This document shows, one piece after another, positions 4,655-60,361 of a DNA stretch of 64,000 bases; positions within the stretch are counted from its first letter, which is position 1; the number at the start of each line of letters is the position of its first letter. The notes beneath the pieces are model-generated. The model did not search any database. It saw nothing but the letters and a program-made list of their open reading frames with translations, and had not been told where the DNA came from. The stretch is from the IMG/VR virus record IMGVR_UViG_3300043015_002491, positions 1 through 64,000 of that record; one strand, 5' to 3'. The DNA is from a virus. The position numbers and the translations under genes were made by a program.

Positions 4655-6241
4655 TTAATAAACTGCTTTCACACTTACTGTATGATTAGTAGTTACCTTA
4701 GCTCTTTCTCTAATTTCTTCGAACTTAGCTTCATTATAAAGTACACCGTTCTCGAATACTAATTGTAACTCATCCTCAGCTTCGTTAAACCCTTCATCAC
4801 TAGATGTAAGTGTCTTATAACCAGTTTGAGTTTTAACTAACTTCAAGTCACCCTTCTTAGACTTCTTAAATGATTTAGTGATGTTACCATCAGCATCAAT
4901 TTCAGTTGGAGACTTAACCACATCTCTTTCCTCACCATTAACGATTGCGAAACAAGCCTTTACAGCGAAGTTTTGAGTGTCTCTGTTGATGTCAGCTTGT
5001 AAAAGCTTTCCACCCATACCTAATGCTAAGTTCTCTGCTGAGATACCTTCTTCTCTAAACATCTCGTATATTTCTCCAATTGAGTTGATATTTACACCAT
5101 CACCTTGGATTACTCTAACTTGTGGAGGTAGTACCTTATATCCCTTAGAGTTAGTTGTATAACCAAACTTATCGAAAAGGATTCTGAAAATCTCCTTAAG
5201 AGTATTAATTACGTGTCCAGAATCTGGTCTGATTACTAATTGATTTCCTGGCTCTGCTGGCCTTGAAAGAATCTTATCTCTAAGTCTATCACCCCAGTAC
5301 TTAGATACTGCTCTGATAATGTTATAAGAATCAGATACACAAGCTACGATACCAGTTGGGTATCTGTCTAATACCGCTTCCATGATATCAGCTTCACCTT
5401 CTTCACCTCTCAATGTCATAATTGAATGTTCAGTTGCTGGTATTGAAAGACCATATACTCTTTCTGTGTTATAGAATTCACAGATTCCCTTAGAAGCGAT
5501 AGTTGTATCAGAACCTAAGAAGTTAACTAAGTGTGCAGAACCACCGTTTCTTGCTGATTGTACAGAAGACACACCTCTGAATCCAAAGTCATTAAGTACG
5601 AAGTCCATAGATAATTCCTTAATATCTTCTGGTAAATCAGTTGTATCATCGAATGCTTTTCTAACAATCTTTCTAACTTCTCTTGAAAGTGTTGCTACTG
5701 TAATAGGATACCACACTTGTAATAATAGTGTTTCTAAGAAGTTAGTCACCCAGTAGCACTTATCGTCAGTATTTTCAATTGTTAATAGTACGTTTTTAAC
5801 ACCAACTACGGAACCCTCTGGTACAGCTTTAATCCTAACTGGTAACTTACCACCATGTTCTTTGATAATGTATTCAAACTTAGCTCTATCAAATACATCA
5901 GTTCTTCCGAATACACCATGTAAGTAAGCTTCAGCTTCATCTAACTCTTCAGTTGTGATAGCAACACCTTCTAAGTATTCCTTAAGGAAGATTTGTAACC
6001 CATAGAATACAGTTTCATCGAATTTTCCACCTCTTGATTCTAAATAAGATTTAATCTTAGTTGTACCCTTATCATAGAATGAGTGATGTGAGTATTTGTA
6101 TGCATCTCCAAGTAATGCTAAGTTATTTGGTTTGTCAAGTGCTTTTTCAATAAGTCCTTGAAGTCCTTCGATTGAAGCAAAGTCTTTGTTCTTAATAGCT
6201 TCGACCAATCTTTCTTTAATTTGTGTTTGTAAACTTTTCAT
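4655..6241 (-). CDS. nadV: nicotinamide phosphoribosyltransferase
   Basis: DAYKYSH, DFGFRG, PATEHS, VSDSY, IRPDSG and IQGDG motifs. Confidence 0.93.
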   Translation of the reverse strand: MKSLQTQIKERLVEAIKNKDFASIEGLQGLIEKALDKPNNLALLGDAYKYSHHSFYDKGTTKIKSYLESRGGKFDETVFYGLQIFLKEYLEGVAITTEELDEAEAYLHGVFGRTDVFDRAKFEYIIKEHGGKLPVRIKAVPEGSVVGVKNVLLTIENTDDKCYWVTNFLETLLLQVWYPITVATLSREVRKIVRKAFDDTTDLPEDIKELSMDFVLNDFGFRGVSSVQSARNGGSAHLVNFLGSDTTIASKGICEFYNTERVYGLSIPATEHSIMTLRGEEGEADIMEAVLDRYPTGIVACVSDSYNIIRAVSKYWGDRLRDKILSRPAEPGNQLVIRPDSGHVINTLKEIFRILFDKFGYTTNSKGYKVLPPQVRVIQGDGVNINSIGEIYEMFREEGISAENLALGMGGKLLQADINRDTQNFAVKACFAIVNGEERDVVKSPTEIDADGNITKSFKKSKKGDLKLVKTQTGYKTLTSSDEGFNEAEDELQLVFENGVLYNEAKFEEIRERAKVTTNHTVSVKAVY

Positions 6242-6266
6242 ATTATAAACTTTTATATAAAAATTA

Positions 6267-7289
6267 TTATTTAATTATTCCTTGTTCTGTTTTAACCATT
6301 CTTTCTAAAACCTTTACAAGTTTCCCAAAGAATTCTAAGTGTTCTGGTACTATCATTTTAGCATATACTTCATAGTCAAGTACATCCTCTATTGGAAACC
6401 AAATAACTTCTTCGATATCATCACCACCCTTTGGATTACCAGCCATCTTAGTGGCTAAGAAGAGAGTACTAAAGATTTCACTGTCTTCTTTAGCATGCCT
6501 CCAATCCTTAATCTTACCACTACATATGTATTTAAGTTCACTAGCTGATTCACATACACTAATACCTGGCGCTTCTTCATGAAGTTCTTTAAGTGCTGCG
6601 GTTTCGTAACTATCATCAGTCACTTCAACGTGACCACCAATAAATCTATATTGATTTTCACCTGGTTTTCTACCCAGAAGTATTGAACTTGTTGTTGGGT
6701 CATATACCACAATATCAGCACATGGCATGATAACTGGATATCTACCATAATTAGCATATACCACACCCTTCCTAAAATCTGTTGAATCTATAATTTCTTT
6801 TGACACTTCATCCCTAACCTTACTACCAGATATATCTACATCATTACCAATTAACTCAACTGTTTGGTATTTGCCATGGTAGTATGGTATAAATGAGTCT
6901 CTACCACCATAAAGTAAGAATGTTCTTTTACCGTATGGTTCTTGAATCTTTTGGTCAAGGATATATGACCAAGTTTCATTACTTCTTTGGTCTCTCATTG
7001 GTAGGATTGTTATTTCTGGATATTCTTTTTGAATCATAGCTTTTCTAGCCGCAAATTCTAAAGGATTTCTTTTAGTATTTTCTACAACTGGAATACCTAA
7101 AAATATAATAACTTTTTTGTGATTTTGACACACAGTATCAATTAACTCTTTATGTACTGGGTGTAATTCTGGTACTTGCATGCGTGAGACAATAACTCCA
7201 ACCTCGTAGTCGTTAACATTAATAACTGGGGGGATGTTTAACTCAATGTGTTCGTCTTTATAATCCATATTTTTAAATCGTTTTAACAA
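6267..7289 (-). CDS. bifunctional NMN adenylyltransferase / Nudix hydrolase (NadM-Nudix)
   Basis: N-terminal nucleotidyltransferase (RMQVPELHPVH, RNPL, SGSKVR) and C-terminal Nudix box (GGHVE...ALKELHEE); adjacent to nadV. Confidence 0.85.
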   Translation of the reverse strand: MLKRFKNMDYKDEHIELNIPPVINVNDYEVGVIVSRMQVPELHPVHKELIDTVCQNHKKVIIFLGIPVVENTKRNPLEFAARKAMIQKEYPEITILPMRDQRSNETWSYILDQKIQEPYGKRTFLLYGGRDSFIPYYHGKYQTVELIGNDVDISGSKVRDEVSKEIIDSTDFRKGVVYANYGRYPVIMPCADIVVYDPTTSSILLGRKPGENQYRFIGGHVEVTDDSYETAALKELHEEAPGISVCESASELKYICSGKIKDWRHAKEDSEIFSTLFLATKMAGNPKGGDDIEEVIWFPIEDVLDYEVYAKMIVPEHLEFFGKLVKVLERMVKTEQGIIK

Positions 7290-14903: not shown

Positions 14904-14910
14904 TTATTAG

Positions 14911-14995
14911 TGGGAGCCGCTGGAATCGAACCAGCACCTATACAGGGCTACAGTTTTACAGACTGCCTCAACCAACCAATAGTTGACTCACTCCC
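14911..14995 (-). tRNA. tRNA-Tyr(GTA), divergent copy
   Basis: loop CTGTAAA; long variable arm; imperfect base of acceptor stem. Confidence 0.75.
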
Positions 14996-15046
14996 AAATT
15001 GACTTTTTACCTTATCCAAACGTAAGCTTAAAGTCTAACAGCGTAG

Positions 15047-15129
15047 TGGGCCTGGTAGGATTCGAACCTACACGCTCCGAAGAGACCAGATTTACAGTCT
15101 GGCGAGCCAACCAATTGCTCAACAGACCC
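15047..15129 (-). tRNA. tRNA-Tyr(GTA)
   Basis: CCAGA-CTGTAAA-TCTGG; long variable arm. Confidence 0.92.
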
Positions 15130-15134
15130 AAATA

Positions 15135-15191
15135 CAGAATGCGCTTTTATATTTACCCAAAAAATAGTTTAAATTTTGCTGAATGCATTCT
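15135..15191 (-). ncRNA. CAGCAA-family small RNA with Pro(TGG) anticodon stem-loop
   Basis: AGAATGC-ATTCAGCAA...TATTT-TTTGGGT-AAATA...GCATTCTG. Confidence 0.7.
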
Positions 15192-15195
15192 TTAG

Positions 15196-15269
15196 CTACC
15201 CAGGGAGGCCTCGAACCTCCAAATTCCACATTCAAAGTGTGGTGACTTTGCCAATTTGTCTACTGGGCA
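15196..15269 (-). tRNA. tRNA-Gln(TTG)
   Basis: CCACA-CTTTGAA-TGTGG. Confidence 0.88.
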
Positions 15270-15323
15270 ATAATGATTTTTTGTATCCTTTACCAAGAAA
15301 GCTTAAAATCTAACAGCATTATG

Positions 15324-15419
15324 TCTGGGGAATGGGATTCGAACCCATGGCAGACACTACCCTTGTGCCCGCACCACGTCCCAAGCGTGGCCACTTCAAC
15401 CTTACTCGTGCATCCCCAG
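15324..15419 (-). tRNA. tRNA-Pro(TGG) with 8-bp variable arm
   Basis: CCACG-CTTGGGA-CGTGG; variable stem GCGGGCAC/GTGTCTGC. Confidence 0.8.
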
Positions 15420-15430
15420 TTTAATTATAG

Positions 15431-15505
15431 TCGGATAGACTGGACTCGAACCAGCACAATGTCCTCATCCCAAATGAGGCGAGATACCAATTTCTCTACT
15501 ACCCG
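15431..15505 (-). tRNA. tRNA-Pro(TGG)
   Basis: CTCA-TTTGGGA-TGAG. Confidence 0.9.
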
Positions 15506-15568
15506 ATTAATTCTCAATACGTCAATGAACATTCTGATTATTTAATCTCTATCAGAAAAAAAGAGCAT

Positions 15569-15602
15569 AAAAAAACCCGTCTCAGTTTTCCTGGACGGGT
15601 TT
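15569..15602 (-). terminator. attenuator terminator of tRNA operon 1
   Basis: AAACCCGTCCAG-GAAAA-CTGAGACGGG-T7; 5' arm complementary to GGCGGGTTT (15664-15672) in the leader ORF. Confidence 0.85.
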
Positions 15603-15626
15603 CTATATCTTTTGAACCTTATGTGA

Positions 15627-15734
15627 TTACAATGTAGTTAAATCACTTTCAGTTAAACATAGCAAACCCGCCACACTCGGCTTCCCGCCTTGCGTATACT
15701 GTTTCGGTTGATATGTCGTAACTGTTAAGTTCAT
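15627..15734 (-). CDS. leader peptide 1 (MNLTVTTYQPKQYTQGGKPSVAGLLCLTESDLTTL)
   Basis: 35 aa ORF between promoter and terminator; codons 6-19 all T/Y/Q/P/K/G. Confidence 0.85.
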   Translation of the reverse strand: MNLTVTTYQPKQYTQGGKPSVAGLLCLTESDLTTL

Positions 15735-15784
15735 TTTTTCTATTTTTTAAATTATTAAATTTGTTCGTTTAATTTATATATATG

Positions 15785-15816
15785 CAAATATATGGTAAAA
15801 GTTTCAATTTGTCAAG
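15785..15816 (-). promoter_or_regulatory. Bacteroidota-type sigma-A promoter, tRNA operon 1
   Basis: CTTGAC...GAAACTTT...TATATTTG (-33/-7 TAnnTTTG); near-identical at four loci. Confidence 0.8.
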
Positions 15817-15870
15817 TATTTTTCAAAATATTTTTAAACTTTTTTATATGTGCTTGATAATCAAGTATTT

Positions 15871-16269
15871 TTATAAATTATTTTTATCCCTAGCTTTTAT
15901 CTCATCCCTAATCTTAGCTGCATCTTCATATCTTTCTTCTTCAATAGCGATTGCAAGTCTATCTTCTAGAGATATTTTCTTTTTAGTTTTAGGTGTGAAG
16001 CCAGTATCAAGTGGTGAATGAATCATTTCAACCTTAACTATTGAACCATGTTCTGTTTCCCAAACACTTCTTTTGAATTTATAACCATTCTCTTCAAATT
16101 CAGTAACTTCATTAGGTTCACCTAATTCACTTTCATATGGATTAGTAGTGTCATCATTTAATTCACTAAAGTCATTTAACTTATTTATTAAATCTCTCAT
16201 ACCTTTTAAGGGGTCATTTGATTTCTTCCCAAAGAAGTCATCAAATAAATCATCAAAATCATTAAACAT
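15871..16269 (-). CDS. UVR (UvrB/C) domain protein
   Basis: C-terminal LAIAIEEERYEDAAKIRDEI; likely start MFNDFDD. Confidence 0.7.
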   Translation of the reverse strand: MFNDFDDLFDDFFGKKSNDPLKGMRDLINKLNDFSELNDDTTNPYESELGEPNEVTEFEENGYKFKRSVWETEHGSIVKVEMIHSPLDTGFTPKTKKKISLEDRLAIAIEEERYEDAAKIRDEIKARDKNNL

Positions 16270-16952
16270 AATATTATTTTTTATTTTTGTTATACGATTA
16301 ATTGTACAAAATAGATACCATTTATTTTTTTCTGCCAATATGTCTGTATCTATATCTAATAGATGTCAAAAGATACCTAAATGGATTAATTTTAAGTAAA
16401 TAGAAATATAGTCCAAATAATGAAACTGATAATAGGTAAAAAATAGAAGTGGTAATTACATAGGAATCTCCTGTCGCTTTTAAAACCATGTAAAAAAGGG
16501 CATCGTACCCTAATGGGTTCATAAACATCGCCATCATTAGAACGATTGTGGCTATTTTCTTTCTGTTTACTACCCTCATCATCCATATTGTTTAAACTTT
16601 GTGTTACCATATTATTAAAATAAGCTAGTTTGATTTGGAAGCATGTTCTTCCAATATTCAAGCTGCTCATCAAGCTTCTTAATCTTTTTGTTAATAGAAG
16701 CCCTTTCTCTTACTAATTGCTTTCTAGCTTCAGTAAGTTCTCTTAATTTATTGTTAATATCGTCTTGACTGATTGTATTATTCTCAGCTAAGATGTTTAA
16801 CTTTTCTTTAATCTTCTTTTTCATATTATATAAATATGAGCATCTTGGTTTAAATACAAAAAAGTTAAGGCCAGTGGCTACCATTCTAGATGGAGTTCGG
16901 AGATTACTATTTCACACTTAGGACCCTAAGACCTTAACCTTTATATTATTAG

Positions 16953-17022
16953 TAGTACTGCTGGGATTCGAACCCAGGTCTCCCCCTCAACGGGAGCGTC
17001 TTGACCGCTACACCACAGTACG
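16953..17022 (-). tRNA. atypical tRNA-like gene (loop GTTGAGG, nominal TGA)
   Basis: T arm CTGGG-TTCGAAT-CCCAG and acceptor GTACTG/CAGTAC; non-canonical anticodon loop. Confidence 0.55.
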
Positions 17023-17107
17023 ACTCTAAGGGAGCGACCCCTAGAGTAAGGAATGTTAGATACTAAGCTTTGGGAGCGACCCATCGCATCATACCCACTA
17101 CCCCTAG

Positions 17108-17232
17108 TCGGAAGGGCTAGATTCGAACTAGCATCAAGTGGTTCCCATAGCTTTTAAATTGCTGAACTTAACCTTTTAAAACAGATTAATCTTTTTGCAT
17201 TACCACCGCCTCACCAGTTGGGCTACCTTCCG
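17108..17232 (-). ncRNA. tRNA body with anticodon loop replaced by ~60-nt CAGCAA module
   Basis: acceptor CGGAAGG/CCTTCCG, D and T arms intact; GTGGT/ACCAC stem encloses TTAATCTG-TTTTAAA-AGGTTAAGTTCAGCAA. Confidence 0.7.
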
Positions 17233-17277
17233 TTTAAAAGGAAGTGTTGTTAAAACGTTTTACCGCACCATTAATAT

Positions 17278-17340
17278 CAGAGTGACTTTTACGTAAATCA
17301 AATTAAAAGTTTGAGCGTTAAAAATTGCTGAAATCACTCT
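17278..17340 (-). ncRNA. CAGCAA-family small RNA with Lys(TTT) anticodon stem-loop
   Basis: AGAGTGA-TTTCAGCAA...TCAAA-CTTTTAA-TTTGA...TCACTCTG. Confidence 0.7.
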
Positions 17341-17364
17341 TTATATTCCTAATATTTTTGATAT

Positions 17365-17482
17365 CAGAATGGGACTTAATACGTGCTCTACCAATTGAGC
17401 TACTTGCCCAGAAGGACAAGGCTGGACTCGAACCAACAACAACGAGCTTAACAGGCTAAAATTTAATTGCTGTAGCCATTCT
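17365..17482 (-). ncRNA. CAGCAA-family RNA with circularly permuted tRNA(Asn)-like module (YrlA-like)
   Basis: AGAATGG-CTACAGCAA, AGC-CTGTTAA-GCT, T arm, acceptor closed by loop (CTTGTCC-TTCT-GGGCAAG), D arm, CCATTCTG. Confidence 0.8.
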
Positions 17483-17746
17483 TTATATATCTTATCTAAT
17501 CTCTCAAAGAACTATGGTACAAACTTACAACTTATTTTTTAATTATGCAAGTTTTTTTTTTATTTTTTTTTAAGATTTTTATTACCCTTTGTATGGATAG
17601 GGTCAAAAGGGCAATGCCTACAACCACTCCCACAACATATAGACCTACGTTTTAAGTAGGATTCTGTATATATTATTTTGCCATTCTCTAAATAATAATC
17701 TTTACCTTCTTCAAATCTAAAATCACTCATATTAATTAATATTTAG

Positions 17747-17819
17747 TGGAGCCACCGATACTCGAAATCGGAACTGCTGGTTGCAAACCAACTATTATCA
17801 CCACTTTAACTATGGCCCC
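17747..17819 (-). tRNA. tRNA-Ala(TGC)
   Basis: loop TTTGCAA; GGGGCCA/TGGCTCC with G3:U70. Confidence 0.88.
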
Positions 17820-17953
17820 AGTTTTGTTAGATTTCGTACCGTTATCACACTTCAGTACAAGTCACTTTCAATTTATCTAACACACTTCCTATGCTGGCTA
17901 ACTGGGTTATTTAAGCGAAATACGCCCCCAGCGCCTTTATGTGACACCGTTAG

Positions 17954-18030
17954 CGGTCTAGGAGGGTTTCGAACCCTCGTTTTAGAGCAGAGACAGTGCA
18001 ATTCCCCCCACCATGGGGGCTTACTAGACC
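17954..18030 (-). tRNA. tRNA-Asp(GTC), divergent copy
   Basis: loop CTGTCTC; acceptor GGTCTAG/CTAGACC; unusual D arm. Confidence 0.65.
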
Positions 18031-18085
18031 GTGCACTAACTAAGGGGGATGATTAAGCCCCAATCAATTGTCGTAGTTAGTAAAG

Positions 18086-18158
18086 CGGACGTGACGGGAG
18101 TTGAACCCGCTCCGAACTGCGTGACAGGCAGACATCTTAACCGTTTGACCTCACGTCC
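18086..18158 (-). tRNA. tRNA-Asp(GTC)
   Basis: CTGC-CTGTCAC-GCAG. Confidence 0.85.
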
Positions 18159-18232
18159 GTAATTGATAGTCTTTCCTATCAGTCATACTCAAAACTCCCA
18201 CTGGTCGTAACTCCAGTTATAGAGAGCGTTTG

Positions 18233-18317
18233 TAATGCGGACGGGGTTCGAACCCGCAATACCCAAGAGGGTCCAGATTGAAAGTCTGGTCGCTTAAACC
18301 AATTTGCATACCGCATC
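18233..18317 (-). tRNA. tRNA-Glu(TTC) with long variable arm
   Basis: CCAGA-CTTTCAA-TCTGG; variable arm ACCC-TCTT-GGGT. Confidence 0.8.
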
Positions 18318-18322
18318 ATATG

Positions 18323-18396
18323 TAACCCAGACGGGGCTCGAACCCGCAATCTCCACAGTGAAAGTGTGACGACTTAACCAGTTTGTCCACTGGGTC
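18323..18396 (-). tRNA. tRNA-Glu(TTC)
   Basis: CACA-CTTTCAC-TGTG. Confidence 0.88.
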
Positions 18397-18431
18397 AAAT
18401 TAAACCAAAATGTCAAAGAACTATTCTTTTG

Positions 18432-18503
18432 TGCGACCCCTCAGATTCGAACTGAGACCTCCTGGGCTTCAACCAGGCGAGCTACCATTAACTCCAGAGC
18501 CAC
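18432..18503 (-). tRNA. tRNA-Phe(GAA)
   Basis: CCTGG-TTGAAGC-CCAGG. Confidence 0.85.
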
Positions 18504-18513
18504 ATATGGGCAT

Positions 18514-18544
18514 AAAAAAAGGCCCTCCGTTTCGGGAGAGCCTT
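18514..18544 (-). terminator. attenuator terminator of tRNA operon 2
   Basis: AAGGCTCTCCCG-AAA-CGGAGGGCC-T7; 5' arm complementary to GGGAGAGTC (18594-18602) in the leader ORF. Confidence 0.85.
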
Positions 18545-18574
18545 CTTATCTAAGCTTTTATGTTTTTATAACAT

Positions 18575-18667
18575 TTAACTTATGACAATACTTGACTCTC
18601 CCAGGCTAAAATCGGCCTCAGCAAACGCTTCAAAAGCAAAATCAAATATGTTGTTAAATGTTCTCAT
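18575..18667 (-). CDS. leader peptide 2 (MRTFNNIFDFAFEAFAEADFSLGESSIVIS)
   Basis: 30 aa ORF; codons 8-20 all F/D/A/E. Confidence 0.85.
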   Translation of the reverse strand: MRTFNNIFDFAFEAFAEADFSLGESSIVIS

Positions 18668-18716
18668 TATTTCTATTTTTTAAATATTAAATTTTTTTGT
18701 TTTAATTATATATATG

Positions 18717-18748
18717 CAAATATAGGTCTAAAGTTTCAAAAAAGCAAG
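18717..18748 (-). promoter_or_regulatory. sigma-A promoter, tRNA operon 2
   Basis: CTTGC...GAAACTTT...TATATTTG. Confidence 0.8.
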
Positions 18749-18793
18749 TATTTTTACAAATTATTTTTAAAATTTTTTTTAATTACTTCATTA

Positions 18794-19738
18794 TCAACGA
18801 TTTAATTTTTTTACTCCTCTACCAAATAATTCAGATTCTTTTTCTCTTCTAGATTTTAGACCTGGATGTTTCTCAAATGATTTTTCACTAGTAGTCTTTA
18901 TTTTTTCTTTAGCCTTTTCATATTCACCCCTTTTAACTAATTGTATAAAGTCAGAGTTTCTAAAACCACTTCTACCCATATTAAAAGCCATAGATACCAT
19001 AGCATCATACATATCTTGGTTGATTGTATATTTAATACCTTTCTTGTCCCAACGTGATAAAACATCATTAATAACCTTTTCAGCATAAGCTAAATCATTT
19101 TTAAATAACTCTTCAGCAGTTTCTCTAGAAATTACTTGACCTAATTTAAACTTAGACCTTCTAATTTTTTCAGCATGCCCCCAACCAATTGTGATTGCAC
19201 CATCACCAAGTTTATAAGCTTTAAGTACTGGTTCACCCTTATGTTTTATACTACCTTCTTCATACTTAAGGTGATTTATTAAATTTTGTGATGCTTTAGT
19301 AGGTTTAGCTACTCTATTGTCTAATTCTTTATTAACTTGATTTTCTTTTTCACTACTAACTCTTTTAACTGGCGTTGAAGTTTCTATTGATGTTAATATA
19401 TCTTGTTTTATATCTGGCGCATTAGCACTTAATAACGAACTAACCGTGTTTAATGATAATAAACCCATTAAACTAATACTCACATATTTTACCATTTTTT
19501 TTCTAAACCCAGATGGGATATTTTTGGTCTTATTTAATAAAACTTCTAAGAATCTTTCACCTTGTGTTGGTGAATGAATGGTTGACATGGTTTTTTCAAG
19601 TTGATTTTTTGTTAAATCCCATTCAAATGTTCTAGACTCTTCTTCGTTTTCACATATTAGTATTAAATCATTTAAACTATTTTCAAATAACCTAGTTTCT
19701 AATTCTTCTCTTAACAAATTTTCTATTAGATGTTTCAT
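18794..19738 (-). CDS. phage lysozyme (GH24) with N-terminal extension
   Basis: EEG..AYK.GDGAITIGWGH, DAMVSMAFNMG and GLKSRREKESELF; likely start MKHLIENLLRE. Confidence 0.88.
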   Translation of the reverse strand: MKHLIENLLREELETRLFENSLNDLILICENEEESRTFEWDLTKNQLEKTMSTIHSPTQGERFLEVLLNKTKNIPSGFRKKMVKYVSISLMGLLSLNTVSSLLSANAPDIKQDILTSIETSTPVKRVSSEKENQVNKELDNRVAKPTKASQNLINHLKYEEGSIKHKGEPVLKAYKLGDGAITIGWGHAEKIRRSKFKLGQVISRETAEELFKNDLAYAEKVINDVLSRWDKKGIKYTINQDMYDAMVSMAFNMGRSGFRNSDFIQLVKRGEYEKAKEKIKTTSEKSFEKHPGLKSRREKESELFGRGVKKLNR

Positions 19739-19792
19739 ATTATATAAATATAACCCAACCATTCAAAAATTGTATAGTACCTTAATTTTTAG

Positions 19793-19874
19793 TGACCCTG
19801 GTGAGACTCGAACTCACACGCCTTTCGGCAGAGGCTTCTTAGACCCCCCTGTATACCAATTCCAGCACAGAGCC
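19793..19874 (-). tRNA. tRNA-Leu(AAG)
   Basis: GGGGT-CTAAGAA-GCCTC; Leu-type D loop and variable arm. Confidence 0.8.
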
Positions 19875-19879
19875 ATAAA

Positions 19880-19963
19880 CAGGTTGAGTTTTACGGGATT
19901 GAACCGCTTCGTTTTGTTTTGCAGACAAAATTTTAACCATTTAAAGTTTGCTGTACTCAACCT
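19880..19963 (-). ncRNA. CAGCAA-family RNA with Cys(GCA) anticodon arm and T-arm remnant
   Basis: AGGTTGAG-TACAGCAA...TTTGT-CTGCAAA-ACAAA..GCGG-TTCAATC-CCGT..CTCAACCTG. Confidence 0.75.
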
Positions 19964-19967
19964 TTAG

Positions 19968-20056
19968 TACGGAGGGCGGGATTCGAACCCGCAGATGTAT
20001 CTTACGTGTGCCGTGGGGTCTAAGCCCACCGACTTTACCAGTTTGTCCACCTCCGC
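19968..20056 (-). tRNA. tRNA-Leu(TAG)
   Basis: GTGGG-CTTAGAC-CCCAC; long variable arm. Confidence 0.82.
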
Positions 20057-20061
20057 ATTTG

Positions 20062-20144
20062 TACTCCCGCCCAGACTCGAACTGGGATTTACTTCACGTC
20101 TCTTCCATGTAAAAGAAGGATGTTACCAATTACACCACAGGAGC
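20062..20144 (-). tRNA. tRNA-Val(TAC), variant with expanded variable region
   Basis: loop TTTACAT. Confidence 0.7.
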
Positions 20145-20150
20145 ATTTTG

Positions 20151-20240
20151 TAGCGGGAGCTGGATTCGAACCAGCGAAATCAGATTCACTCTGCCTCTGG
20201 GTTATGAGCCCAGCGAGCCGACCAACTGCTCTACCCCGCA
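20151..20240 (-). tRNA. tRNA-Met(CAT), initiator-like, long variable arm
   Basis: CTGGG-CTCATAA-CCCAG (three G-C pairs); 1:72 mismatch. Confidence 0.8.
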
Positions 20241-22820: not shown

Positions 22821-23144
22821 ATGGGATTTATTTATTTAATTACTGATTGGTCTTCGAACCCGACACGTTATAAGGTGGGTATCACTAAGAATAATGTTGA
22901 AAGTAGATTAAAGCAGTTGCAGACAGGTTCAAGTGGTGAATTAGTGTTACTTAAAACATACGAATCAGAACACTATCGTAAAATAGAAGGTATTCTCCAT
23001 CGTGGTTATAAAACCTACTCTACCGATGGTGGTAAAGAATGGTTTGAATTACCAGATGAAACAGCCCTAAACTTTTTAAATGAATGTGAGCAGATTGATA
23101 ATAATATCAAAATGCTCAAGGATAGTGGTAACCCTTTTATTTAA
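22821..23144 (+). CDS. GIY-YIG / T5orf172-like nuclease
   Basis: GFIYLI...YKVGIT...RLKQLQTG...EWF. Confidence 0.85.
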   Translation: MGFIYLITDWSSNPTRYKVGITKNNVESRLKQLQTGSSGELVLLKTYESEHYRKIEGILHRGYKTYSTDGGKEWFELPDETALNFLNECEQIDNNIKMLKDSGNPFI

Positions 23145-24351
23145 TAACTACCCCTTTTTGTTTTTCATAAACATAAAACTTCTTTCTAATTTCAATAAGA
23201 AGTTTATTTACCAAACCACTTTCAACACTCTTAGGTAAATCAGATTCATCAAAGATTGTATCCATGTTCTGGATTTCTTTATCCGCCATTTCAATTAGTG
23301 ATTCTAAATCAACTTCTCCACGTCTGATTGAAAGTAATTCTTGAGCATCTGGTCTACGGATAATAATACCCTTACCTTCACCAATCTCCTTAGCCATTCT
23401 GATAAGTCTCATGCAATGCATCATATTCTTACCATCGATTTGTTGACCATGTTTTTGCGTATCAACATATCTTGCTTCGTTTCTATTTTCAACCCATTCT
23501 TGGTATTCCTTATAATCCTTACAGTGTTGTGAATAACCATCCTTATTATACGTAAAGATAGCAATTGATTTTTCCTCCTTGGGGATACTTGACAATCTCA
23601 ATTGATTGGATATTCCAGCATTGTTGGATTCCCCAACCTTAACAAGGCCCTTATACCCAAGACCGAAAGTAGTACCTTCTTCATTCCCAAGGAATCTTTT
23701 AACTCTATTCTTAGACTCTTCATCAAAGTCAGATGAGAAACAATTAGCAGCTACACCATCATAATAAAGAGCATACATATCTCTAGCATTGGGAATATTA
23801 ACCACACCGCAGAATTTTTGTGCATCAGAAGGGTAACCCTCTCTTTCAAACCAATCTTTAATTGGAGTTGACTTCTCACCTTCAATTACATAACAGAAGT
23901 CAAGTAATTCTTTTCTAGTTACTTTTTCCTTTTCCCAGTTTTGTTTCTTGTTAAGACCCTTCGCCTTCTTGATTTGTTGTCTAGCATATCCACCAAATGA
24001 GTTTTTACACCCCTTTGTGATAAACTTGTTCTTCTCGTTGATAATAATATCAAAAAGTGGATTCTTAGAGACAATACAATCTTCTGGTGAATTAAGCAAT
24101 TCAAGTACCGTTGGGTTGTTGCTTTCAAGTAGTTCAAGGAAACGCCTTACTTCCCAACCAACATAATCTTTATTAATATTTATTTGTTCAACATACCCAG
24201 TACCTAGAATAAAGTCTTCTGGAAGGATATATACAAACTTCTTATCAATATCACTTGTCGGTGTTTGAGTTCCATAGGCTTGTGACCCTACAATGGTTTC
24301 AAAAAGGATGAGACCATTCTCTACTAAAAATTCGTGTGTAATCTGTTTCAT
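23137..24351 (-). CDS. Pol-beta superfamily nucleotidyltransferase (RlaP/NrdC.11-like)
   Basis: GSQAYGTQTPTSDIDKK, NPTVLELL and KNMMHCMRL. Confidence 0.82.
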   Translation of the reverse strand: MKQITHEFLVENGLILFETIVGSQAYGTQTPTSDIDKKFVYILPEDFILGTGYVEQININKDYVGWEVRRFLELLESNNPTVLELLNSPEDCIVSKNPLFDIIINEKNKFITKGCKNSFGGYARQQIKKAKGLNKKQNWEKEKVTRKELLDFCYVIEGEKSTPIKDWFEREGYPSDAQKFCGVVNIPNARDMYALYYDGVAANCFSSDFDEESKNRVKRFLGNEEGTTFGLGYKGLVKVGESNNAGISNQLRLSSIPKEEKSIAIFTYNKDGYSQHCKDYKEYQEWVENRNEARYVDTQKHGQQIDGKNMMHCMRLIRMAKEIGEGKGIIIRRPDAQELLSIRRGEVDLESLIEMADKEIQNMDTIFDESDLPKSVESGLVNKLLIEIRKKFYVYEKQKGVVIK

Positions 24352-36884: not shown

Positions 36885-36951
36885 CAGGATGGTTTTTTTA
36901 CGTAATCAAATTAGAAGTTTGGTCGTTAAAAATATTTGCTGAACCCATCCT
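36885..36951 (-). ncRNA. CAGCAA-family small RNA with Arg(TCT) anticodon stem-loop
   Basis: AGGATGG-GTTCAGCAA...CAAA-CTTCTAA-TTTG...CCATCCTG. Confidence 0.7.
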
Positions 36952-37613: not shown

Positions 37614-37692
37614 ATTTGTAGAGTAGGTGGGGTATTCTCCCACAATAAAGGGTCATAGTCCAGCGGTTTGTAGTTTGAACCTACTATTCTAG

Positions 37693-37778
37693 TTGGTAGG
37701 GTGGGACTCGAACCCACATTGTGCTTTCGCACCCAGTGTATCAGACTGGTCCCTGTAAACCAATTCGGGTACCTACCA
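37693..37778 (-). tRNA. tRNA-Ile(GAT) with long variable arm
   Basis: CCAGT-CTGATAC-ACTGG; variable arm GTGC-GAAA-GCAC. Confidence 0.8.
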
Positions 37779-37785
37779 ATATTAA

Positions 37786-37875
37786 TGGCGGAGAGAGTGG
37801 GACTCGAACCCACACACCTCTAGGGCCTACGGTTTTCAAGACCGTTGCAGTTAGACCTACTCTGCTTACCTCTCC
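37786..37875 (-). tRNA. tRNA-Ser(TGA)
   Basis: ACGGT-CTTGAAA-ACCGT; CCA encoded. Confidence 0.9.
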
Positions 37876-40749: not shown

Positions 40750-41910
40750 TTATAATAAATTTTTAAAATTTTCAATTTCCATTTTCTCAATAGCCTTACC
40801 CATTTCTGGTCCAGGCTTAACTCCTAACTCTCGTTGTACTTGGTCACCAGTTACACTCAATTCAAATTTAACAAAACTAGTGATTAACTCACCATTTAAC
40901 CTTGCAAGCATACCAAACTTAAGTATTTGAGTATCTTCAATACCAGACTTACTTTGTAACTTCTTAAACTTGTAAACTTGTTCTGGGTTTACGAATTGTT
41001 GTAAAGCAATTAGAAATGTAATAACCTTAACTTCTGATGAAGAATAAGTAAGCTTATTTAACTCCTTTGCAATAACATTAGGGTCATTATCCTTAAGTGT
41101 ATTAGCAATCACAATGATTGGGTCCTTATCGTTAACCCTATCTGTTTTACTAATCTTAAGACCTGGGAAAATTGATTCCCATAATTTGTAGTCATCAATA
41201 AGACTTAAGAAATGTTTAACATTCTTAGCCGTTTTAATCCCCTTTAATAACTCATCTCTGATTCTTTCTGGCGAAACACCTTCAAGACTGTTATCCTTCT
41301 TTAAAGCAGCATCTACAGCTGGGTCAAGCCCACTTCCGAATCTACCAGCGAATCTAATAGCTCTAAGTATTCTAAGTCTATCTTCACCGAATCTATCTTC
41401 AGCAGCACCAACAGTTCTAACAACACCATTCTTCAAGTCATCAATACCACCAACAAGGTCAACAACCTCACCAGTATCTATATCGTAAAATAATGCGTTA
41501 ATAGTTAAATCTCTTCTCTTAACATCGGTTTCAATATCTGTAAATCTAACAGCATCTGGTCTCCTACCACCAGATAGGTCTTCTCTAAATGTAGCAATTT
41601 CGTATTCATCTGAATCTGTGAATACATTGATTACACCAAAAGCTTTACCAGTTGGTAGTGTTTTAAACCCAGCATCAGCCATCATATCTTCAACCTTGTC
41701 TGGTACAGCATCAGTTGCGAGGTCATAATCTTTTGGTGTCTTTCCTAGTAATGCATCTCTAACAGCACCACCAACAACAAATAACTTATGTCCGTTTTTA
41801 ACGAAAACATCTTTAATTTGTCTAATATCATCTGGGATAGGCATGTTCATTTGCACCCTTTCTTCTCTTATGATATCTTCTCTAAGTATTTGTTTGATTT
41901 TATCTTTCAT
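40750..41910 (-). CDS. cca: CCA tRNA nucleotidyltransferase
   Basis: VGGAVRD, DYDLAT, RRDLTINA and EDRLRILRAIRFA. Confidence 0.92.
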   Translation of the reverse strand: MKDKIKQILREDIIREERVQMNMPIPDDIRQIKDVFVKNGHKLFVVGGAVRDALLGKTPKDYDLATDAVPDKVEDMMADAGFKTLPTGKAFGVINVFTDSDEYEIATFREDLSGGRRPDAVRFTDIETDVKRRDLTINALFYDIDTGEVVDLVGGIDDLKNGVVRTVGAAEDRFGEDRLRILRAIRFAGRFGSGLDPAVDAALKKDNSLEGVSPERIRDELLKGIKTAKNVKHFLSLIDDYKLWESIFPGLKISKTDRVNDKDPIIVIANTLKDNDPNVIAKELNKLTYSSSEVKVITFLIALQQFVNPEQVYKFKKLQSKSGIEDTQILKFGMLARLNGELITSFVKFELSVTGDQVQRELGVKPGPEMGKAIEKMEIENFKNLL

Positions 41911-47189: not shown

Positions 47190-47314
47190 CAGAATAGTGA
47201 TTTAGAATGATTAACATGGTCTAGACACATGGTTGTTTTTTGTTACTCAACAAGAGGACAATTTCTAAAACCTCTCTCTCTCTTTCTTAAAGAACTAATC
47301 GCTGTAACTATTCT
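47190..47314 (-). ncRNA. CAGCAA-family RNA variant (ACAGCGA)
   Basis: AGAATAGT-TACAGCGA...ACTATTCTG. Confidence 0.55.
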
Positions 47315-49805: not shown

Positions 49806-49853
49806 CAGAATCGTTTTATTTTGCAGATAAATATTCATTGCTGAACCGATTCT
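49806..49853 (-). ncRNA. minimal CAGCAA-family RNA with Cys(GCA) anticodon stem-loop
   Basis: AGAATCG-GTTCAGCAA..TTTAT-CTGCAAA-ATAAA-ACGATTCTG. Confidence 0.7.
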
Positions 49854-50962: not shown

Positions 50963-51022
50963 CAGAATGGTATCTTTACAATAAATATTCAAAATTTAAC
51001 TTTAACTTGCTGTAACCATTCT
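50963..51022 (-). ncRNA. CAGCAA-family small RNA (possible Ser TGA loop)
   Basis: AGAATGGT-TACAGCAA...TAAAT-TTTGAAT-ATTTA...ACCATTCTG. Confidence 0.65.
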
Positions 51023-58733: not shown

Positions 58734-58903
58734 CGGAATGCGGGAGCGTTTACTTCAGAGCTCTGTAATGAAGGTTGTTTTTTATAGTACACATCCTAAG
58801 TTTTTTAGTGTACCAAATAGGTGCTAACAACTTTAAAAACACCACCTTTCAACTGTACTTAATATAAATCTAATTTGTTAAAAAGTTTGCAGTATGCATT
58901 CCT
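58734..58903 (-). ncRNA. CAGCAA-family RNA variant (ACTGCAA) directly downstream of the DUF2828 gene
   Basis: GGAATGC-ATACTGCAA...GCATTCCG; begins a few nt after the stop codon. Confidence 0.6.
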
Positions 58904-58909: not shown

Positions 58910-60361
58910 TTAAACACGAATTGCTTCGTATCTTTCTGAACTAATAATATTCATCATCATTCCGTAAGGAGTGATATCATTACCAGCTAATAAGCTTGTT
59001 AATAACGCTGGGCTGAAACCAGACACCAACGCAGTACCTTGCTTATCGAATTGTACTGGGTTATTGTCATTTCTTGATTGAATGTTCCAGTATACAACCT
59101 TTGGCATTGTGTACCCAGCATCTGCATACATGTTTTCAATCATTCTTTGAGCAGTTGGATTCCAATCAGAATCACCTCTCCAACCATCGCCAGTAGCTTG
59201 GTTGAATTCCATATCCGAAAGGATAAGAATCATAGTTGGCATTTCTGACTCAGCAACATTACTAGCTTTTGCTTTTTGAAGCAATACCTTGAATGTCTTT
59301 TCTAAGTCTGTACTACCACCCCATTCTGCTCTAGATAGTTGGTTGAATCTGTCTCTTAAATCACCCTTTAAGTATTGTAACTTTGGGTTAGAGTGGAAAG
59401 TGAAGAATGCATCCTTGAATGGTCCTTCATTTCTCTCAGAGATATATAAACCTAATGAGATAGCTACATCCATACAGCTGATATTTGCGTTACCGCCAGC
59501 TGACACACCCATTGAGCCAGAAACGTCTACCACTGGTAAAACTCTTTCTTTATTACCTTCCATGTAGTTAGGTAAAGCTTTCCATTGTTCAACAGCACCA
59601 TCAGCTGAACCATATTTCAAGTTCTTAGTAATGTCGTATGGATATACAGCACCAGCATTAATCTTAGTTTCACCCTTTGAAAGTGAATCCAAATATGCTT
59701 GGAATCTGCTACCATCATTCTTAGAGAATGCCTTCATGTAATCAGACATTGCCTTAGATGGTACGTGTTCGTATGTAATCGCACCGAATTCTCTAGCACA
59801 CATTAATTGCTCAACAGTGTTAGATAACTCAGAAAGCATCTTTCTATACGCCTTTGGTGTTAACCCTAAGTGTTTTCTTAAGGTACTAGCCCATCTCTTC
59901 TTTTCCCTATTCTTAGTGTTACCTCTTGGCATCCACTTAGCCGCAAGTCCATTACCATCTTTTAACGCTTTTTCAATTTCGTTAAGAGCTTCTTTCTCTA
60001 ATTTAGTACCAACTAATATTAAATAGTCATCATACCTACCGTACTCAGCAATAAGTCCTATGTTCTTCTTAAGTGCTGAAGTTTTAGTATTAGCAAGATA
60101 AGTTAAAATATCTCTGAAAGTACCTCTTTCACCAGCTCCACCTCTAACGTCTCTAGCCCAGAATAAAATCTTCATAGCTGTTAACGAATCTTCAGCGAAA
60201 GCTTTAGAAAATGCATTAATCTTTCTTTGTTTATCTTGCCCTCTTAAAGCACCAATTTGGAAAAATAGGTCTACACAAGAATTAAGTGTAGTTGAATTTG
60301 TTGTCATACCATTTTCAGTAACAGTATCTTCAGTTCTTAAAGCGTCAATTAAATTTGCCAT
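58910..60361 (-). CDS. DUF2828 family protein with C-terminal vWA domain (TROVE/Ro60-like architecture)
   Basis: TENG, DLFF, FWARDVRGGAGER and AAKWMPR; MIDAS DVSGSM, ILSDMEF, YWN and SGFSP. Confidence 0.85.
   Translation of the reverse strand: MANLIDALRTEDTVTENGMTTNSTTLNSCVDLFFQIGALRGQDKQRKINAFSKAFAEDSLTAMKILFWARDVRGGAGERGTFRDILTYLANTKTSALKKNIGLIAEYGRYDDYLILVGTKLEKEALNEIEKALKDGNGLAAKWMPRGNTKNREKKRWASTLRKHLGLTPKAYRKMLSELSNTVEQLMCAREFGAITYEHVPSKAMSDYMKAFSKNDGSRFQAYLDSLSKGETKINAGAVYPYDITKNLKYGSADGAVEQWKALPNYMEGNKERVLPVVDVSGSMGVSAGGNANISCMDVAISLGLYISERNEGPFKDAFFTFHSNPKLQYLKGDLRDRFNQLSRAEWGGSTDLEKTFKVLLQKAKASNVAESEMPTMILILSDMEFNQATGDGWRGDSDWNPTAQRMIENMYADAGYTMPKVVYWNIQSRNDNNPVQFDKQGTALVSGFSPALLTSLLAGNDITPYGMMMNIISSERYEAIRV

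What the first reader, a model, noticed from the sequence alone, without database searches (positions are those of the whole stretch)
17108..17482. Two neighbouring RNAs look like circular permutations of the same tRNA + CAGCAA chimera
17365-17482 has its ends in the CAGCAA stem and contains an Asn anticodon hairpin, T arm, acceptor stem closed by a TTCT loop, then D arm (YrlA-like order). 17108-17232 has normal tRNA ends, but its anticodon loop is replaced by the CAGCAA stem with the halves swapped (TTAATCT before AGGTTAA-GTTCAGCAA) and closed by a loop. The unit has its own promoter (~17520-17551) and boxA-like site. The second form could be CCA-tailed or charged while lacking an anticodon.
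Basis: seen in the sequence. Interest (0 to 1): 0.75.

Follow-up and report, generated by a model that had tools for sequence, protein, structure and literature searches.

The report
Two tRNA-shaped Ro60-like partner RNAs
A large uncultured phage encodes two neighbouring tRNA look-alikes that carry the same conserved "handle" in opposite topologies; they most likely belong to a widespread family, not found in the papers or Rfam copy searched, of partner RNAs for a phage protein shaped like the RNA-surveillance protein Ro60.

Summary
On the minus strand, A (17482-17366) is a YrlA-ordered tRNA body (T arm, closed 7-bp acceptor, D arm) whose ends form a 7-bp stem followed by CU-ACAGCAA. B (17232-17108) has normal tRNA ends and carries the same handle, closed into a hairpin, inside its anticodon loop. 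A third handle RNA (17340-17279) lies between them. The window holds nine open-ended handles plus B, against 1.8 expected by chance. The handle follows the gene for a DUF2828 protein in 46 of 70 related phage loci. That protein's model matches Ro60 over its full length. Both topologies recur in other viral contigs (35 A-type including the window's, 43 B-type), and 42 of 50 such records encode DUF2828 (18 of 18 near-complete ones), against 0 of 38 controls. Best reading: Y-RNA analogues of a Ro60-like protein, in two circularly permuted forms. Corrections: the two tRNA bodies differ (Asn-like and Pro-like), B keeps anticodon-like bases, and the promoter and boxA are not beyond chance. Binding and expression are not shown. 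This scan has noted the same system before, in at least 68 other genomes. I found no paper or Rfam family describing it.

The parts
17366..17482 (-). RNA A: open handle (stem AGAAUGG 17482-17476 / CCAUUCU 17372-17366, then CU, then ACAGCAA 17473-17467) carrying an Asn-like tRNA body with a closed acceptor (YrlA order)
   Evidence: Sequence. Rfam YrlA local hit of 42.3 bits. Aligns with 34 A-type RNAs from viral contigs; 21 of 23 consensus pairs show compensatory changes.
17279..17340 (-). RNA M: short open handle RNA (AGAGUGA-UU-UCAGCAA ... UCACUCU) between A and B; its interior resembles the copy at 36886-36951
17108..17232 (-). RNA B: tRNA-topology form. Acceptor CGGAAGG/CCUUCCG, A73. Handle hairpin at 17189-17168 (UUAAUCU-GUUUUAAA-AGGUUAA), then GU, then UCAGCAA at 17165-17159, all inside the anticodon loop.
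   Evidence: Aligns with 42 B-type RNAs; 21 of 23 consensus pairs show compensatory changes.
17522..17551 (-). Candidate sigma-70-like promoter TTGCAT-17 nt-TAAGTT upstream of A (unverified)
   Evidence: Sequence only. Not listed by the promoter scan, whose site count is not above shuffles.
58910..60361 (-). DUF2828/DUF7788 protein (483 aa) with a Ro60 fold (TROVE-like ring plus vWA); the inferred partner of the handle RNAs
   Evidence: Pfam. phrog_850 'RNA-binding protein'. AF2 model with pLDDT 83.9. Foldseek hits 9kop, 9l5y, 2i91, 1yvp and 2nvo at E 3e-9 to 1e-6.
58735..58902 (-). Handle RNA directly after the DUF2828 stop codon (GGAAUGC-AU-ACUGCAA ... GCAUUCC), followed by a terminator-like hairpin
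   Evidence: The same position is occupied by a handle RNA in 46 of 70 related loci.
15136..15191 (-). Open handle RNA between tRNA-Gln and tRNA-Tyr
19881..19963 (-). Open handle RNA with a CUGCAAA hairpin and a T-arm-like hairpin, between two tRNA-Leu genes
36886..36951 (-). Open handle RNA between tRNA-Arg and tRNA-Ser
47191..47314 (-). Open handle RNA with the variant motif ACAGCGA
49807..49853 (-). Short open handle RNA with a CUGCAAA hairpin
50964..51022 (-). Short open handle RNA near tRNA-Met
40750..41910 (-). PolyA_pol family (CCA-adding type) nucleotidyltransferase ORF; could complete the 3' ends of the tRNAs and of B
   Evidence: E 7.4e-39 at 41416-41784; ORF.

Best explanation
A and B are non-decoding, tRNA-mimicking small RNAs of a phage family that I call handle RNAs. 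The handle is a 7-bp helix followed by two bases and the single-stranded motif WCWGCAA, with a conserved G after the 3' strand. It is most likely the docking site of the phage's Ro60-fold protein (DUF2828, 58910-60361), as the basal stem of a Y RNA is for Ro60. A has the YrlA topology: the RNA ends lie in the handle and the acceptor is closed by a loop. B is the circular permutation: the ends lie at the acceptor and the handle is closed by a loop. B would therefore be cut by RNase P and 3'-matured like the neighbouring tRNAs, and probably given CCA. Shown here: the anatomy, the recurrence of both topologies, covariation, co-occurrence and adjacency of handle RNAs with DUF2828 genes, and the Ro60 fold of the protein model. 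Inferred: binding, processing, CCA addition and the biological role. The role is probably to tether tRNA-like cargo to the Ro60-like ring, for RNA surveillance or repair or for counter-defence.
For: Anatomy. Handle copies in the window: 11 on the minus strand against 1.83 +/- 1.33 in shuffles. Nine of these are intergenic, start with AG or GG, and sit inside tRNA clusters, 3 nt after a tRNA and 6 nt before the next.

Gene to RNA: 46 of 70 evaluable DUF2828 loci have a handle within 800 nt downstream on the gene's strand. The controls gave 17 of 70 (opposite strand), 3 of 74 (upstream), 7 of 66 (800-1600 nt downstream) and 10 of 76 (gene body). The closing stems differ between loci while staying complementary.

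RNA to gene: 42 of 50 viral records that hold A- or B-type RNAs encode DUF2828, including 18 of 18 records at least 90% complete. The figure is 0 of 38 for tRNA-rich records and for YrlA-like records without the handle. Pfam TROVE is found in 8 of 14 non-handle YrlA-like records and 0 of 18 handle records. In the 29 of 61 loci that also hold the gene, all 40 RNAs are on its strand and 37 lie within 1.2 kb.

Protein: AF2 model with pLDDT 83.9. Full-length Foldseek matches to Ro60 structures, E 3e-9 to 1e-6. The DxSxS triad of the vWA domain is invariant.

Both topologies: 35 A-type (including the window's) and 43 B-type among 205 motif-plus-T-loop sites. The flanking G is kept in 33 of 35 A-type and 37 of 43 B-type RNAs. 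RNAalifold recovers the D arms and outer T-stem pairs, which were not selection criteria, with compensatory changes.

B's ends match those of the phage's real tRNAs, and a CCA-adding family enzyme is encoded. Precedent: M. smegmatis YrlA is cut by RNase P and receives CCA (PMC4201824, passages).
Against: No binding or expression data. In this phage the DUF2828 gene lies 41 kb from A and B. A is below Rfam's YrlA gathering score (42.3 against 69) and lacks the GNCGAAN0-1G motif of bacterial Y RNAs. Folding energies of A and B are not better than shuffles (z -1.20 and -0.55). The closing, acceptor and handle stems were my selection criteria, so their covariation counts are partly circular. The opposite-strand control is not negligible (17 of 70). 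No orthologue of the A-M-B unit was found in relatives, so conservation of these two genes themselves is untested. Half of the B-type and 10 of 35 A-type RNAs keep a canonical anticodon arm, which a pure docking scaffold would not need.
Confidence: 0.72

Rival explanations
1. A and B are real tRNA genes in disguise. B is a tRNA-Pro(GGG) gene interrupted by a 54-nt intron, and A is a circularly permuted tRNA-Asn(GUU) gene. The handle is the signal at which an endonuclease cuts and a phage ligase joins, giving decoding tRNAs.
For: ARAGORN in intron mode reads B as tRNA-Pro(GGG), with stem GGUGG/CCACU and loop U|UGGGAA after removal of 54 nt. A contains a full Asn-type anticodon arm, and its CG/CG pairs continue that stem across the handle. 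21 of 43 B-type and 10 of 35 A-type RNAs keep a canonical anticodon hairpin in the tRNA register, against 3 of 215 and 2 of 175 in shifted registers. The phage encodes an Rnl2-type ligase, RlaP and a CCA-adding family enzyme.
Against: The insert has no group I intron match in Rfam, and I saw no bulge-helix-bulge at the junctions (reading). ARAGORN's intron mode makes such calls for 39 of 43 sequences of the B-type alignment (the window's B among them), mostly with implausible anticodons. Half or more of the family lack a usable anticodon arm. Seven handle RNAs of the window carry no tRNA body at all. The inserted part is the most conserved part, which is unlike an intron. The window already has a normal tRNA-Asn(GUU).
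Confidence: 0.08
2. The handle is a processing or stability element of phage tRNA operons, for example a spacer hairpin recognised by a host RNase, with no specific link to the DUF2828 protein. A and B are decaying tRNA genes that picked it up.
For: The handles sit tightly between tRNAs, 3 nt after one and 6 nt before the next. All are on the transcribed strand.
Against: 0 of 38 tRNA-rich or YrlA-like control records have DUF2828, against 42 of 50 handle records. The handle follows the DUF2828 gene even where no tRNA is near. The D and T arms of the tRNA-like bodies still covary.
Confidence: 0.08
3. The CAGCAA module is a small selfish repeat that inserts into tRNA anticodon arms. The copies are insertion scars without an RNA-level function.
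For: It is a multi-copy dispersed family. The insertion point in tRNA bodies recurs, mostly between positions 28 and 29 (reading of the B-type sequences printed).
Against: Complete strand bias (9 AG/GG-initial copies on the minus strand). Stems differ in sequence yet stay paired. No terminal inverted repeats or target duplications were seen in the flanks printed. The repeat-only reading does not explain the tight link to one protein family.
Confidence: 0.04

Closest known systems
Bacterial and phage Y RNAs of the YrlA type with Ro60/Rsr (Rfam RF02553; Chen et al. 2014, PMC4201824, passages read)
   Same: Both are small RNAs whose 5' and 3' ends form a protein-binding stem and whose distal part mimics tRNA, in the order T arm, closed acceptor, D arm. 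They are encoded with a ring-shaped TROVE+vWA-fold protein, often in several copies per genome. A's core matches the YrlA model at E 5e-8.
   Different: The basal module is a 7-bp stem plus NN-WCWGCAA instead of the GNCGAAN0-1G stem. The partner is DUF2828, which Pfam TROVE does not detect. A keeps a complete anticodon arm as a side branch. A is below the family's gathering score. B has the opposite topology.
[quoted passage not shown]
   Same: It is a Y RNA whose 7-bp acceptor-like stem is opened by RNase P and extended to CCA, giving tRNA-like ends while the Ro60 stem holds the halves together. This is functionally the topology that B encodes directly.
   Different: There the form arises by cleavage and has two pieces. 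B is encoded as one chain, with the handle closed by a loop.
Thermus phage phiLo Ro60 with Yrl1 and Yrl2 (PMC12135203; abstract and passages; structures 9kop and 9l5y)
   Same: A phage-encoded Ro60-fold protein with phage-encoded partner RNAs next to the gene. These structures are the best structural matches of the window's protein model.
   Different: phiLo Ro60 is a recognisable Ro60 homologue. Its RNAs carry the CGAA motif, and the passages I read did not mention tRNA-like domains.
Bas63 gp130 (Felixounavirus), a Ro60-like counter of the ppl defence system (PhageMaP preprint 10.1101/2024.10.10.617714, passages)
   Same: wV8, also a Felixounavirus, has a DUF2828-family protein that sits directly upstream of a tRNA cluster holding four handle RNAs; that preprint describes Bas63 gp130 as Ro60-like and directly upstream of tRNA genes. 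I did not examine Bas63 itself. The authors guessed that some of its annotated tRNAs may be Y RNAs.
   Different: No RNA was identified or defined there. The handle, the two topologies and the co-occurrence statistics are not in the passages I read.
Circularly permuted and split tRNA genes
   Same: A has the gene order 3' half, acceptor junction, 5' half, with a helix joining the transcript ends. B is an interrupted tRNA body.
   Different: Those genes are matured into decoding tRNAs by the archaeal/eukaryal splicing endonuclease at bulge-helix-bulge motifs. No such motif or enzyme is evident here, and most family members could not give a tRNA.

Membership tests
YrlA (Rfam RF02553) | Score at or above the curated gathering threshold (69 bits) | tested here: not met
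   A: 42.3 bits, local match to model positions 24-84. The B region: 16.3 bits, E 1.7.
YrlA (Rfam RF02553) | tRNA-like domain in the order T arm, closed acceptor-like hairpin, D arm, enclosed by a stem | tested here: met
   Met for A (alignment; consensus). Not the case for B, whose acceptor is open.
Bacterial Y RNA | GNCGAAN0-1G motif in the Ro60-binding stem (Chen 2014) | tested here: not met
   No such motif in A, M or B on reading. The only CGAA is in B's T loop.
Bacterial Y RNA | Encoded with a Ro60/Rsr (Pfam TROVE) gene | tested here: not met
   No TROVE match in the 122.5-kb record, which is only 35% complete. A Ro60-fold DUF2828 gene is present instead.
Bacterial Y RNA | Bound by the Ro60 protein in vivo | not testable with these tools
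   Needs immunoprecipitation or gel shift.
Handle RNAs of DUF2828 Ro60-like proteins (working family; not in Rfam 15) | 7-bp helix, 2 nt, WCWGCAA, and G after the 3' strand | tested here: met
   A, M and seven other copies have the open form. B has the hairpin-closed form, with G as the first loop base.
Handle RNAs of DUF2828 Ro60-like proteins (working family) | The genome encodes a DUF2828 protein | tested here: met
   Window 58910-60361. Family-wide: 42 of 50 records against 0 of 38 controls.
Canonical tRNA (RF00005 / ARAGORN) | Detected by the tRNA covariance model or by ARAGORN in default mode | tested here: not met
   Neither A nor B is listed.
Intron-containing tRNA | Removal of the insert restores a 7-nt anticodon loop with U33 and a purine at 37 | tested here: inconclusive
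   This holds formally for B (tRNA-Pro GGG, 54-nt insert). But the same program makes such calls for 39 of 43 sequences of the B-type alignment.
Intron-containing tRNA | A recognisable splicing apparatus or signal (group I intron fold, or bulge-helix-bulge) | tested here: not met
   No intron family in Rfam at E up to 10. No bulge-helix-bulge on my reading of the junctions.

The most novel reading that the evidence does not exclude
The handle is a switchable maturation signal. A is a permuted tRNA-Asn gene and B an interrupted tRNA-Pro(GGG) gene. Both are held in an inactive form on the Ro60-like ring, then cut at the handle and re-joined by the phage's Rnl2/RlaP/CCA enzymes into decoding tRNAs when needed. 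That would be the first protein-guided tRNA splicing or permutation system in a bacterial virus. A milder version is that B is charged with proline while on the ring. B has the full recalled E. coli-type tRNA-Pro identity set: C1-G72, A73, G35 and G36. The B-type RNA L063:4561-4685 has the same set.
Probability: 0.07. Interest if true: 0.95.

Novelty: new variant of a known kind. Interest (0 to 1): 0.74.

Why it matters
Ro60 and its Y RNAs are a conserved RNA-surveillance particle, and the purpose of the tRNA-like domain of bacterial Y RNAs is an open question. This work points to a second, apparently undescribed branch of that system. It has a different protein family (DUF2828, with matches in 711 phage records, including Felixounavirus, Listeria, Staphylococcus, Campylobacter, Vibrio and Mycobacterium phages) and a different RNA handle. 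Its cargo ranges from bare hairpins to complete tRNA bodies in two permuted topologies.

The window shows both topologies side by side. None of 61 other loci did. One form has tRNA ends and a complete Pro-like identity set, in a phage that also encodes a CCA-adding enzyme, an RNA ligase and RlaP. This makes the question 'is the tRNA mimic processed, tailed or even charged while bound?' directly testable. Because a Felixounavirus of E. coli (wV8) carries the same system, the tests can be done in a laboratory strain. A relative of the protein has been reported to counter a defence system. The RNAs may therefore be part of a counter-defence mechanism.

Tried and rejected
Thermodynamics: single-sequence folds of A and B are no better than shuffles. 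I do not use folding energy as support.

Motif count: CAGCAATT occurs 4 times against 2.38 expected, which is not significant alone. My first loose handle scan (spacer 0-4, distance up to 260) did not separate from shuffles. I replaced it with the strict scan.

Second YrlA reading: a weak match in which B's 3' half plus the downstream sequence forms a YrlA shape (17154-17053, 16.3 bits, E 1.7). Rejected as chance level.

Close phage relatives by DNA: 1 trivial hit.

Orthologues of the A-M-B unit through the neighbouring lysozyme-domain gene: 16 loci, none syntenic, no handle RNAs of this kind.

B as a paralogue of one of the window's tRNAs: no close match. The 5' half is nearest a tRNA-Leu and the 3' half nearest a tRNA-Pro.

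PDB by sequence for the DUF2828 protein: nothing meaningful. The fold search was needed.

RtcB: none found in the 122.5-kb fragment.

Expression: the look-up of sequencing runs listed three metatranscriptome runs holding small shares (0.16, 0.13, 0.05) of a 7-kb stretch.

Literature: searches for DUF2828; YrlA + phage; Ro60 + phage + Y RNA; TROVE/phage/tRNA-like/Y RNA; permuted tRNA + bacteriophage; and Ro60-like + phage gave no description of the handle or of the two topologies. Chen et al. 2014's supplemental lists of phage Y RNAs could include DUF2828 phages, and I could not check that.
Full report
Context. The window is the first 64 kb of a 122.5-kb IMG/VR virus record judged about 35% complete, so it comes from a jumbo phage. 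Nearly all ORFs and all 31 tRNA genes plus a tmRNA lie on the minus strand. Neither ARAGORN in default mode nor Rfam at gathering thresholds reports anything at 17108-17482.

The observation. Read on the minus strand, A (17482-17366) runs as follows: AGAAUGG, CU, ACAGCAA, UUAAAUUUU, then the hairpin AGC-CUGUUAA-GCU. Next come CG, UUGUU, the T arm GUUGG-UUCGAGU-CCAGC, the acceptor CUUGUCC-UUCU-GGGCAAG, UA, the D arm GCUC-AAUUGGUA-GAGC, A, CG, UAUUAAGUC and CCAUUCU. Rfam's YrlA model aligns to the T arm, closed acceptor and D arm with high posterior probabilities (42.3 bits, E 5e-8 in the 601-nt search, model positions 24-84 of 114). It does not align to the basal part, and the score is below the gathering score of 69. 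The two CG dinucleotides pair with each other. As a result the Asn-type hairpin is the lower part of a normal 5-bp anticodon stem, and the handle leaves that stem between tRNA positions 28 and 29.

B (17232-17108) is, in order: CGGAAGG, UA, a 3-bp D arm, then a 5-bp stem that encloses AAUGCAAAAAGA. Inside follow UUAAUCU-GUUUUAAA-AGGUUAA, GU, UCAGCAA and UUUAAAAGCUAUGGGA.

A family, not a pair. A strict scan used a 7-bp stem with at most one G-U, exactly 2 nt, [ACU]C[AU]GC[AG]A, and the partner strand 12-200 nt downstream. It finds 11 sites on the minus strand and 3 on the plus strand, against 1.83 +/- 1.33 (maximum 7) in 100 dinucleotide shuffles. Nine of the eleven start with AG or GG and are intergenic: 15191-15136, 17340-17279 (M, between A and B), 17482-17366 (A), 19963-19881, 36951-36886, 47314-47191, 49853-49807, 51022-50964 and 58902-58735. 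I did not follow up the other two. One of them lies inside the NAMPT ORF.

Several copies sit 3 nt after a tRNA (..N73-C-UAA-AG..) and 6 nt before the next (..CU-GUAUUU-GG..). Ordinary tRNA processing would therefore release them. B's loop, G-UUUU-AAA, looks like the 3' flank (G) and the 5' flank (AAA) of the open copies fused together.

The partner protein. The copy at 58902-58735 starts 8 nt after the stop codon of a 483-aa DUF2828/DUF7788 protein. PHROGs calls the family 'RNA-binding protein'. A sequence search of the PDB finds nothing. An AlphaFold model built from 24 homologues (pLDDT 83.9, pTM 0.82) matches Ro60 structures over about 510-580 columns. The matches are the phiLo phage Ro60 (9kop, 9l5y), Xenopus Ro60 (2i91, 1yvp, 1yvr) and D. 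radiodurans Rsr (2nvo), at E 3e-9 to 1e-6 and TM 0.37-0.61. The next matches cover only the vWA domain. Pfam TROVE does not detect the protein.

Link between protein and RNA, in both directions. Of 76 viral-contig loci encoding relatives of the protein, 70 have at least 200 nt downstream. Of these, 46 carry a handle within 800 nt on the gene's strand (66 handles). The controls gave 17 of 70 on the opposite strand, 3 of 74 upstream, 12 of 74 upstream on the opposite strand, 7 of 66 at 800-1600 nt downstream, and 10 of 76 in the gene body. The stems vary between loci while staying paired (AGAAUGU/ACAUUCU, AAAAUGC/GCAUUUU, UGGUUCC/GGAACCA, AGGAUAG/CUAUCCU and others).

In the other direction, I took viral records found only by RNA features (ACAGCAA followed by a T loop, then classified as A- or B-type). 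Of these, 42 of 50 encode DUF2828, and 18 of 18 among those at least 90% complete. The figure is 0 of 38 among records found by a T-loop/D-arm pattern that hold tandem tRNAs or non-handle YrlA-like RNAs (0 of 15 near-complete). Pfam TROVE gives the mirror image: 8 of 14 non-handle YrlA-like records and 0 of 18 handle records. Where the fetched locus also holds the gene (29 of 61 loci), all 40 RNAs are on its strand and 37 lie within 1.2 kb. In the cultured E. coli phage wV8, the gene (gp47) directly precedes the tRNA cluster, which holds four handles. One of these is an A-type tRNA mimic.

Both topologies are natural classes. Simple rules sorted them. I called a site A-type if it had a closing stem plus a closed acceptor hairpin, and B-type if it had a 7-bp open acceptor plus a handle hairpin. 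One search gave 37 A-type and 43 B-type sites. After I required a realistic closing distance, this became 35 A-type (including the window's), 43 B-type and 127 unclassified.

MAFFT plus RNAalifold on 35 A-type and 43 B-type sequences recovers the closing or handle stem, acceptor, D arm and T arm, with 21 of 23 pairs showing compensatory changes in each set. The closing, acceptor and handle stems were selection criteria, so those counts are partly circular. The D arm and the three outer T-stem pairs were not selected, and they covary as well. The base after the handle's 3' strand is G in 33 of 35 A-type RNAs. The first loop base is G in 37 of 43 B-type RNAs, and positions 3-7 of the handle strand share the same consensus in both sets. 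The two forms are therefore true permutations of one design.

None of the 61 other loci held both forms. The window's side-by-side arrangement is unusual in this sample.

What is special about B. In most B-type RNAs, as in A, the handle leaves the anticodon stem after position 28, and a full anticodon arm follows. This was seen in 21 of 43 B-type and 10 of 35 A-type RNAs, against 3 of 215 and 2 of 175 in shifted registers. In the window's B the handle sits in the anticodon loop. ARAGORN in intron mode reads a tRNA-Pro(GGG) with a 54-nt insert after position 32. That mode is permissive: it makes calls for 39 of 43 sequences of the B-type alignment, the window's B among them. The name is therefore only a description.

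Still, B combines C1-G72, A73 and ..U-GGG-A-A. As I recall, this is the identity set of E. coli tRNA-Pro. One B-type RNA in a 205-kb phage (L063 4561-4685) has the same design: C1-G72, A73 and U-AGG-G-A after a loop insertion.

B's 3' context (A-C-UA) is that of 27 of the window's 31 tRNAs, which end N73-C followed by A or T. Only two encode CCA. The phage encodes a PolyA_pol/CCA-adding family enzyme, an Rnl2-type RNA ligase and RlaP. No RtcB was found in the fragment.

Most likely mechanism. The handle docks the RNA on the Ro60-like ring, and the cargo is a tRNA mimic. This is inferred from the Ro60/Y-RNA precedent and from the associations above. A probably matures with its ends in the handle. 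Its 7-bp acceptor also makes it a candidate for RNase P cleavage, as shown for M. smegmatis YrlA, which would convert it into a two-piece version of B. B would be processed like a tRNA and given CCA. The biological role is open. A Ro60-like protein of the Felixounavirus Bas63 was reported to counter the ppl defence system, and the authors guessed at Y RNAs among the tRNAs. The phiLo Ro60 binds its RNAs and the host PNPase. Jumbo-phage surveys place TROVE proteins among RNA-repair genes.

Rivals. These are real split or permuted tRNA genes (0.08), a general tRNA-operon processing element (0.08), and a selfish repeat (0.04). Each is set out with its evidence in the Rival explanations section.

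Weak points. Folding energies are unremarkable. The DUF2828 gene is 41 kb away in this phage. No orthologues of A or B themselves were found. Part of the covariation evidence rests on sequences chosen for pairing. The promoter and boxA claims are not beyond chance.

Relation to earlier notes of this scan. After forming my reading I looked these up. Notes on this genome already list the ten handle copies (e1-6160430; it gave me the 47191-47314 copy, which I then verified) and the DUF2828 gene with its adjacent RNA (e1-6151922). Eighty notes in at least 68 other genomes describe the same system, including tRNA-topology forms (e1-5692233, e1-5832276, e1-5859792). My results agree with them and were obtained independently from the window and from public contigs.

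Literature. In the papers I could search I found no description of the handle or of the two topologies.

Noticed in passing
window 14910-20240 and 37692-37970 (minus strand): Several tRNAs that normally have short variable regions carry long, paired variable arms: Pro 97 nt, Glu 86, Val 84, Met 91, Ile 87, Thr 88. They often lie next to a normal-length copy with the same anticodon (Pro, Glu, Val).
   Followed up: no
window 16954-17021 (minus strand): A 68-nt tRNA-like gene called Ser(UGA) lacks the long variable arm of tRNA-Ser. It has a 4-bp T stem and an odd anticodon loop, GUUGAGG. It ends the A-M-B unit (Rfam tRNA 39.5 bits).
   Followed up: no
window 17022-17107 (minus strand): Between B and that tRNA-like gene lie two hairpins that share the core GGGUCGCUCCC. 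The second is a 10-bp stem, CUCUAGGGG..CCCUUAGAG. Function unknown.
   Followed up: partly
window 17560-17730 (minus strand): A 56-aa ORF with a CCGSGCRHCP cysteine motif lies between tRNA-Ala and the A-M-B unit. It has no PHROG match.
   Followed up: partly
window 23137-24351, 29712-30770, 40750-41910, 45835-46623: An RNA-end repair toolkit: RlaP nucleotidyltransferase, an Rnl2-type RNA ligase, a CCA-adding family enzyme, and a weak MTPAP-like nucleotidyltransferase match. No RtcB was found in the 122.5-kb fragment.
   Followed up: partly
window 52118-56372: A quality-control cluster around the tmRNA (52701-53070): an FKBP-type isomerase, ClpP and a full DnaJ.
   Followed up: no
window, all tRNA genes: 27 of 31 tRNA genes end N73-C followed by A or T. 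Only two (Ser 37786-37875, His 38128-38202) encode CCA, so the set depends on a CCA-adding enzyme.
   Followed up: yes
window 58735-58902 and loci L068-L130: The long handle RNA that follows the DUF2828 gene has a conserved 3' hairpin, CUUCA..UGAAG. Loop bases of this hairpin can pair with the stretch just before the closing stem (GAGC/GCUC in the window, GGG/CCC or GAG/CUC elsewhere). This suggests a covarying pseudoknot.
   Followed up: partly
L063 4440-4688: Two B-type RNAs lie in tandem, so that the T arm of the first and the D arm of the second mimic an A-type arrangement. This illustrates how tandem duplication could convert one topology into the other.
   Followed up: partly
window 4655-7289: Genes for a NAMPT-type nicotinamide phosphoribosyltransferase and a NUDIX protein (an NAD salvage pair).
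   Followed up: no
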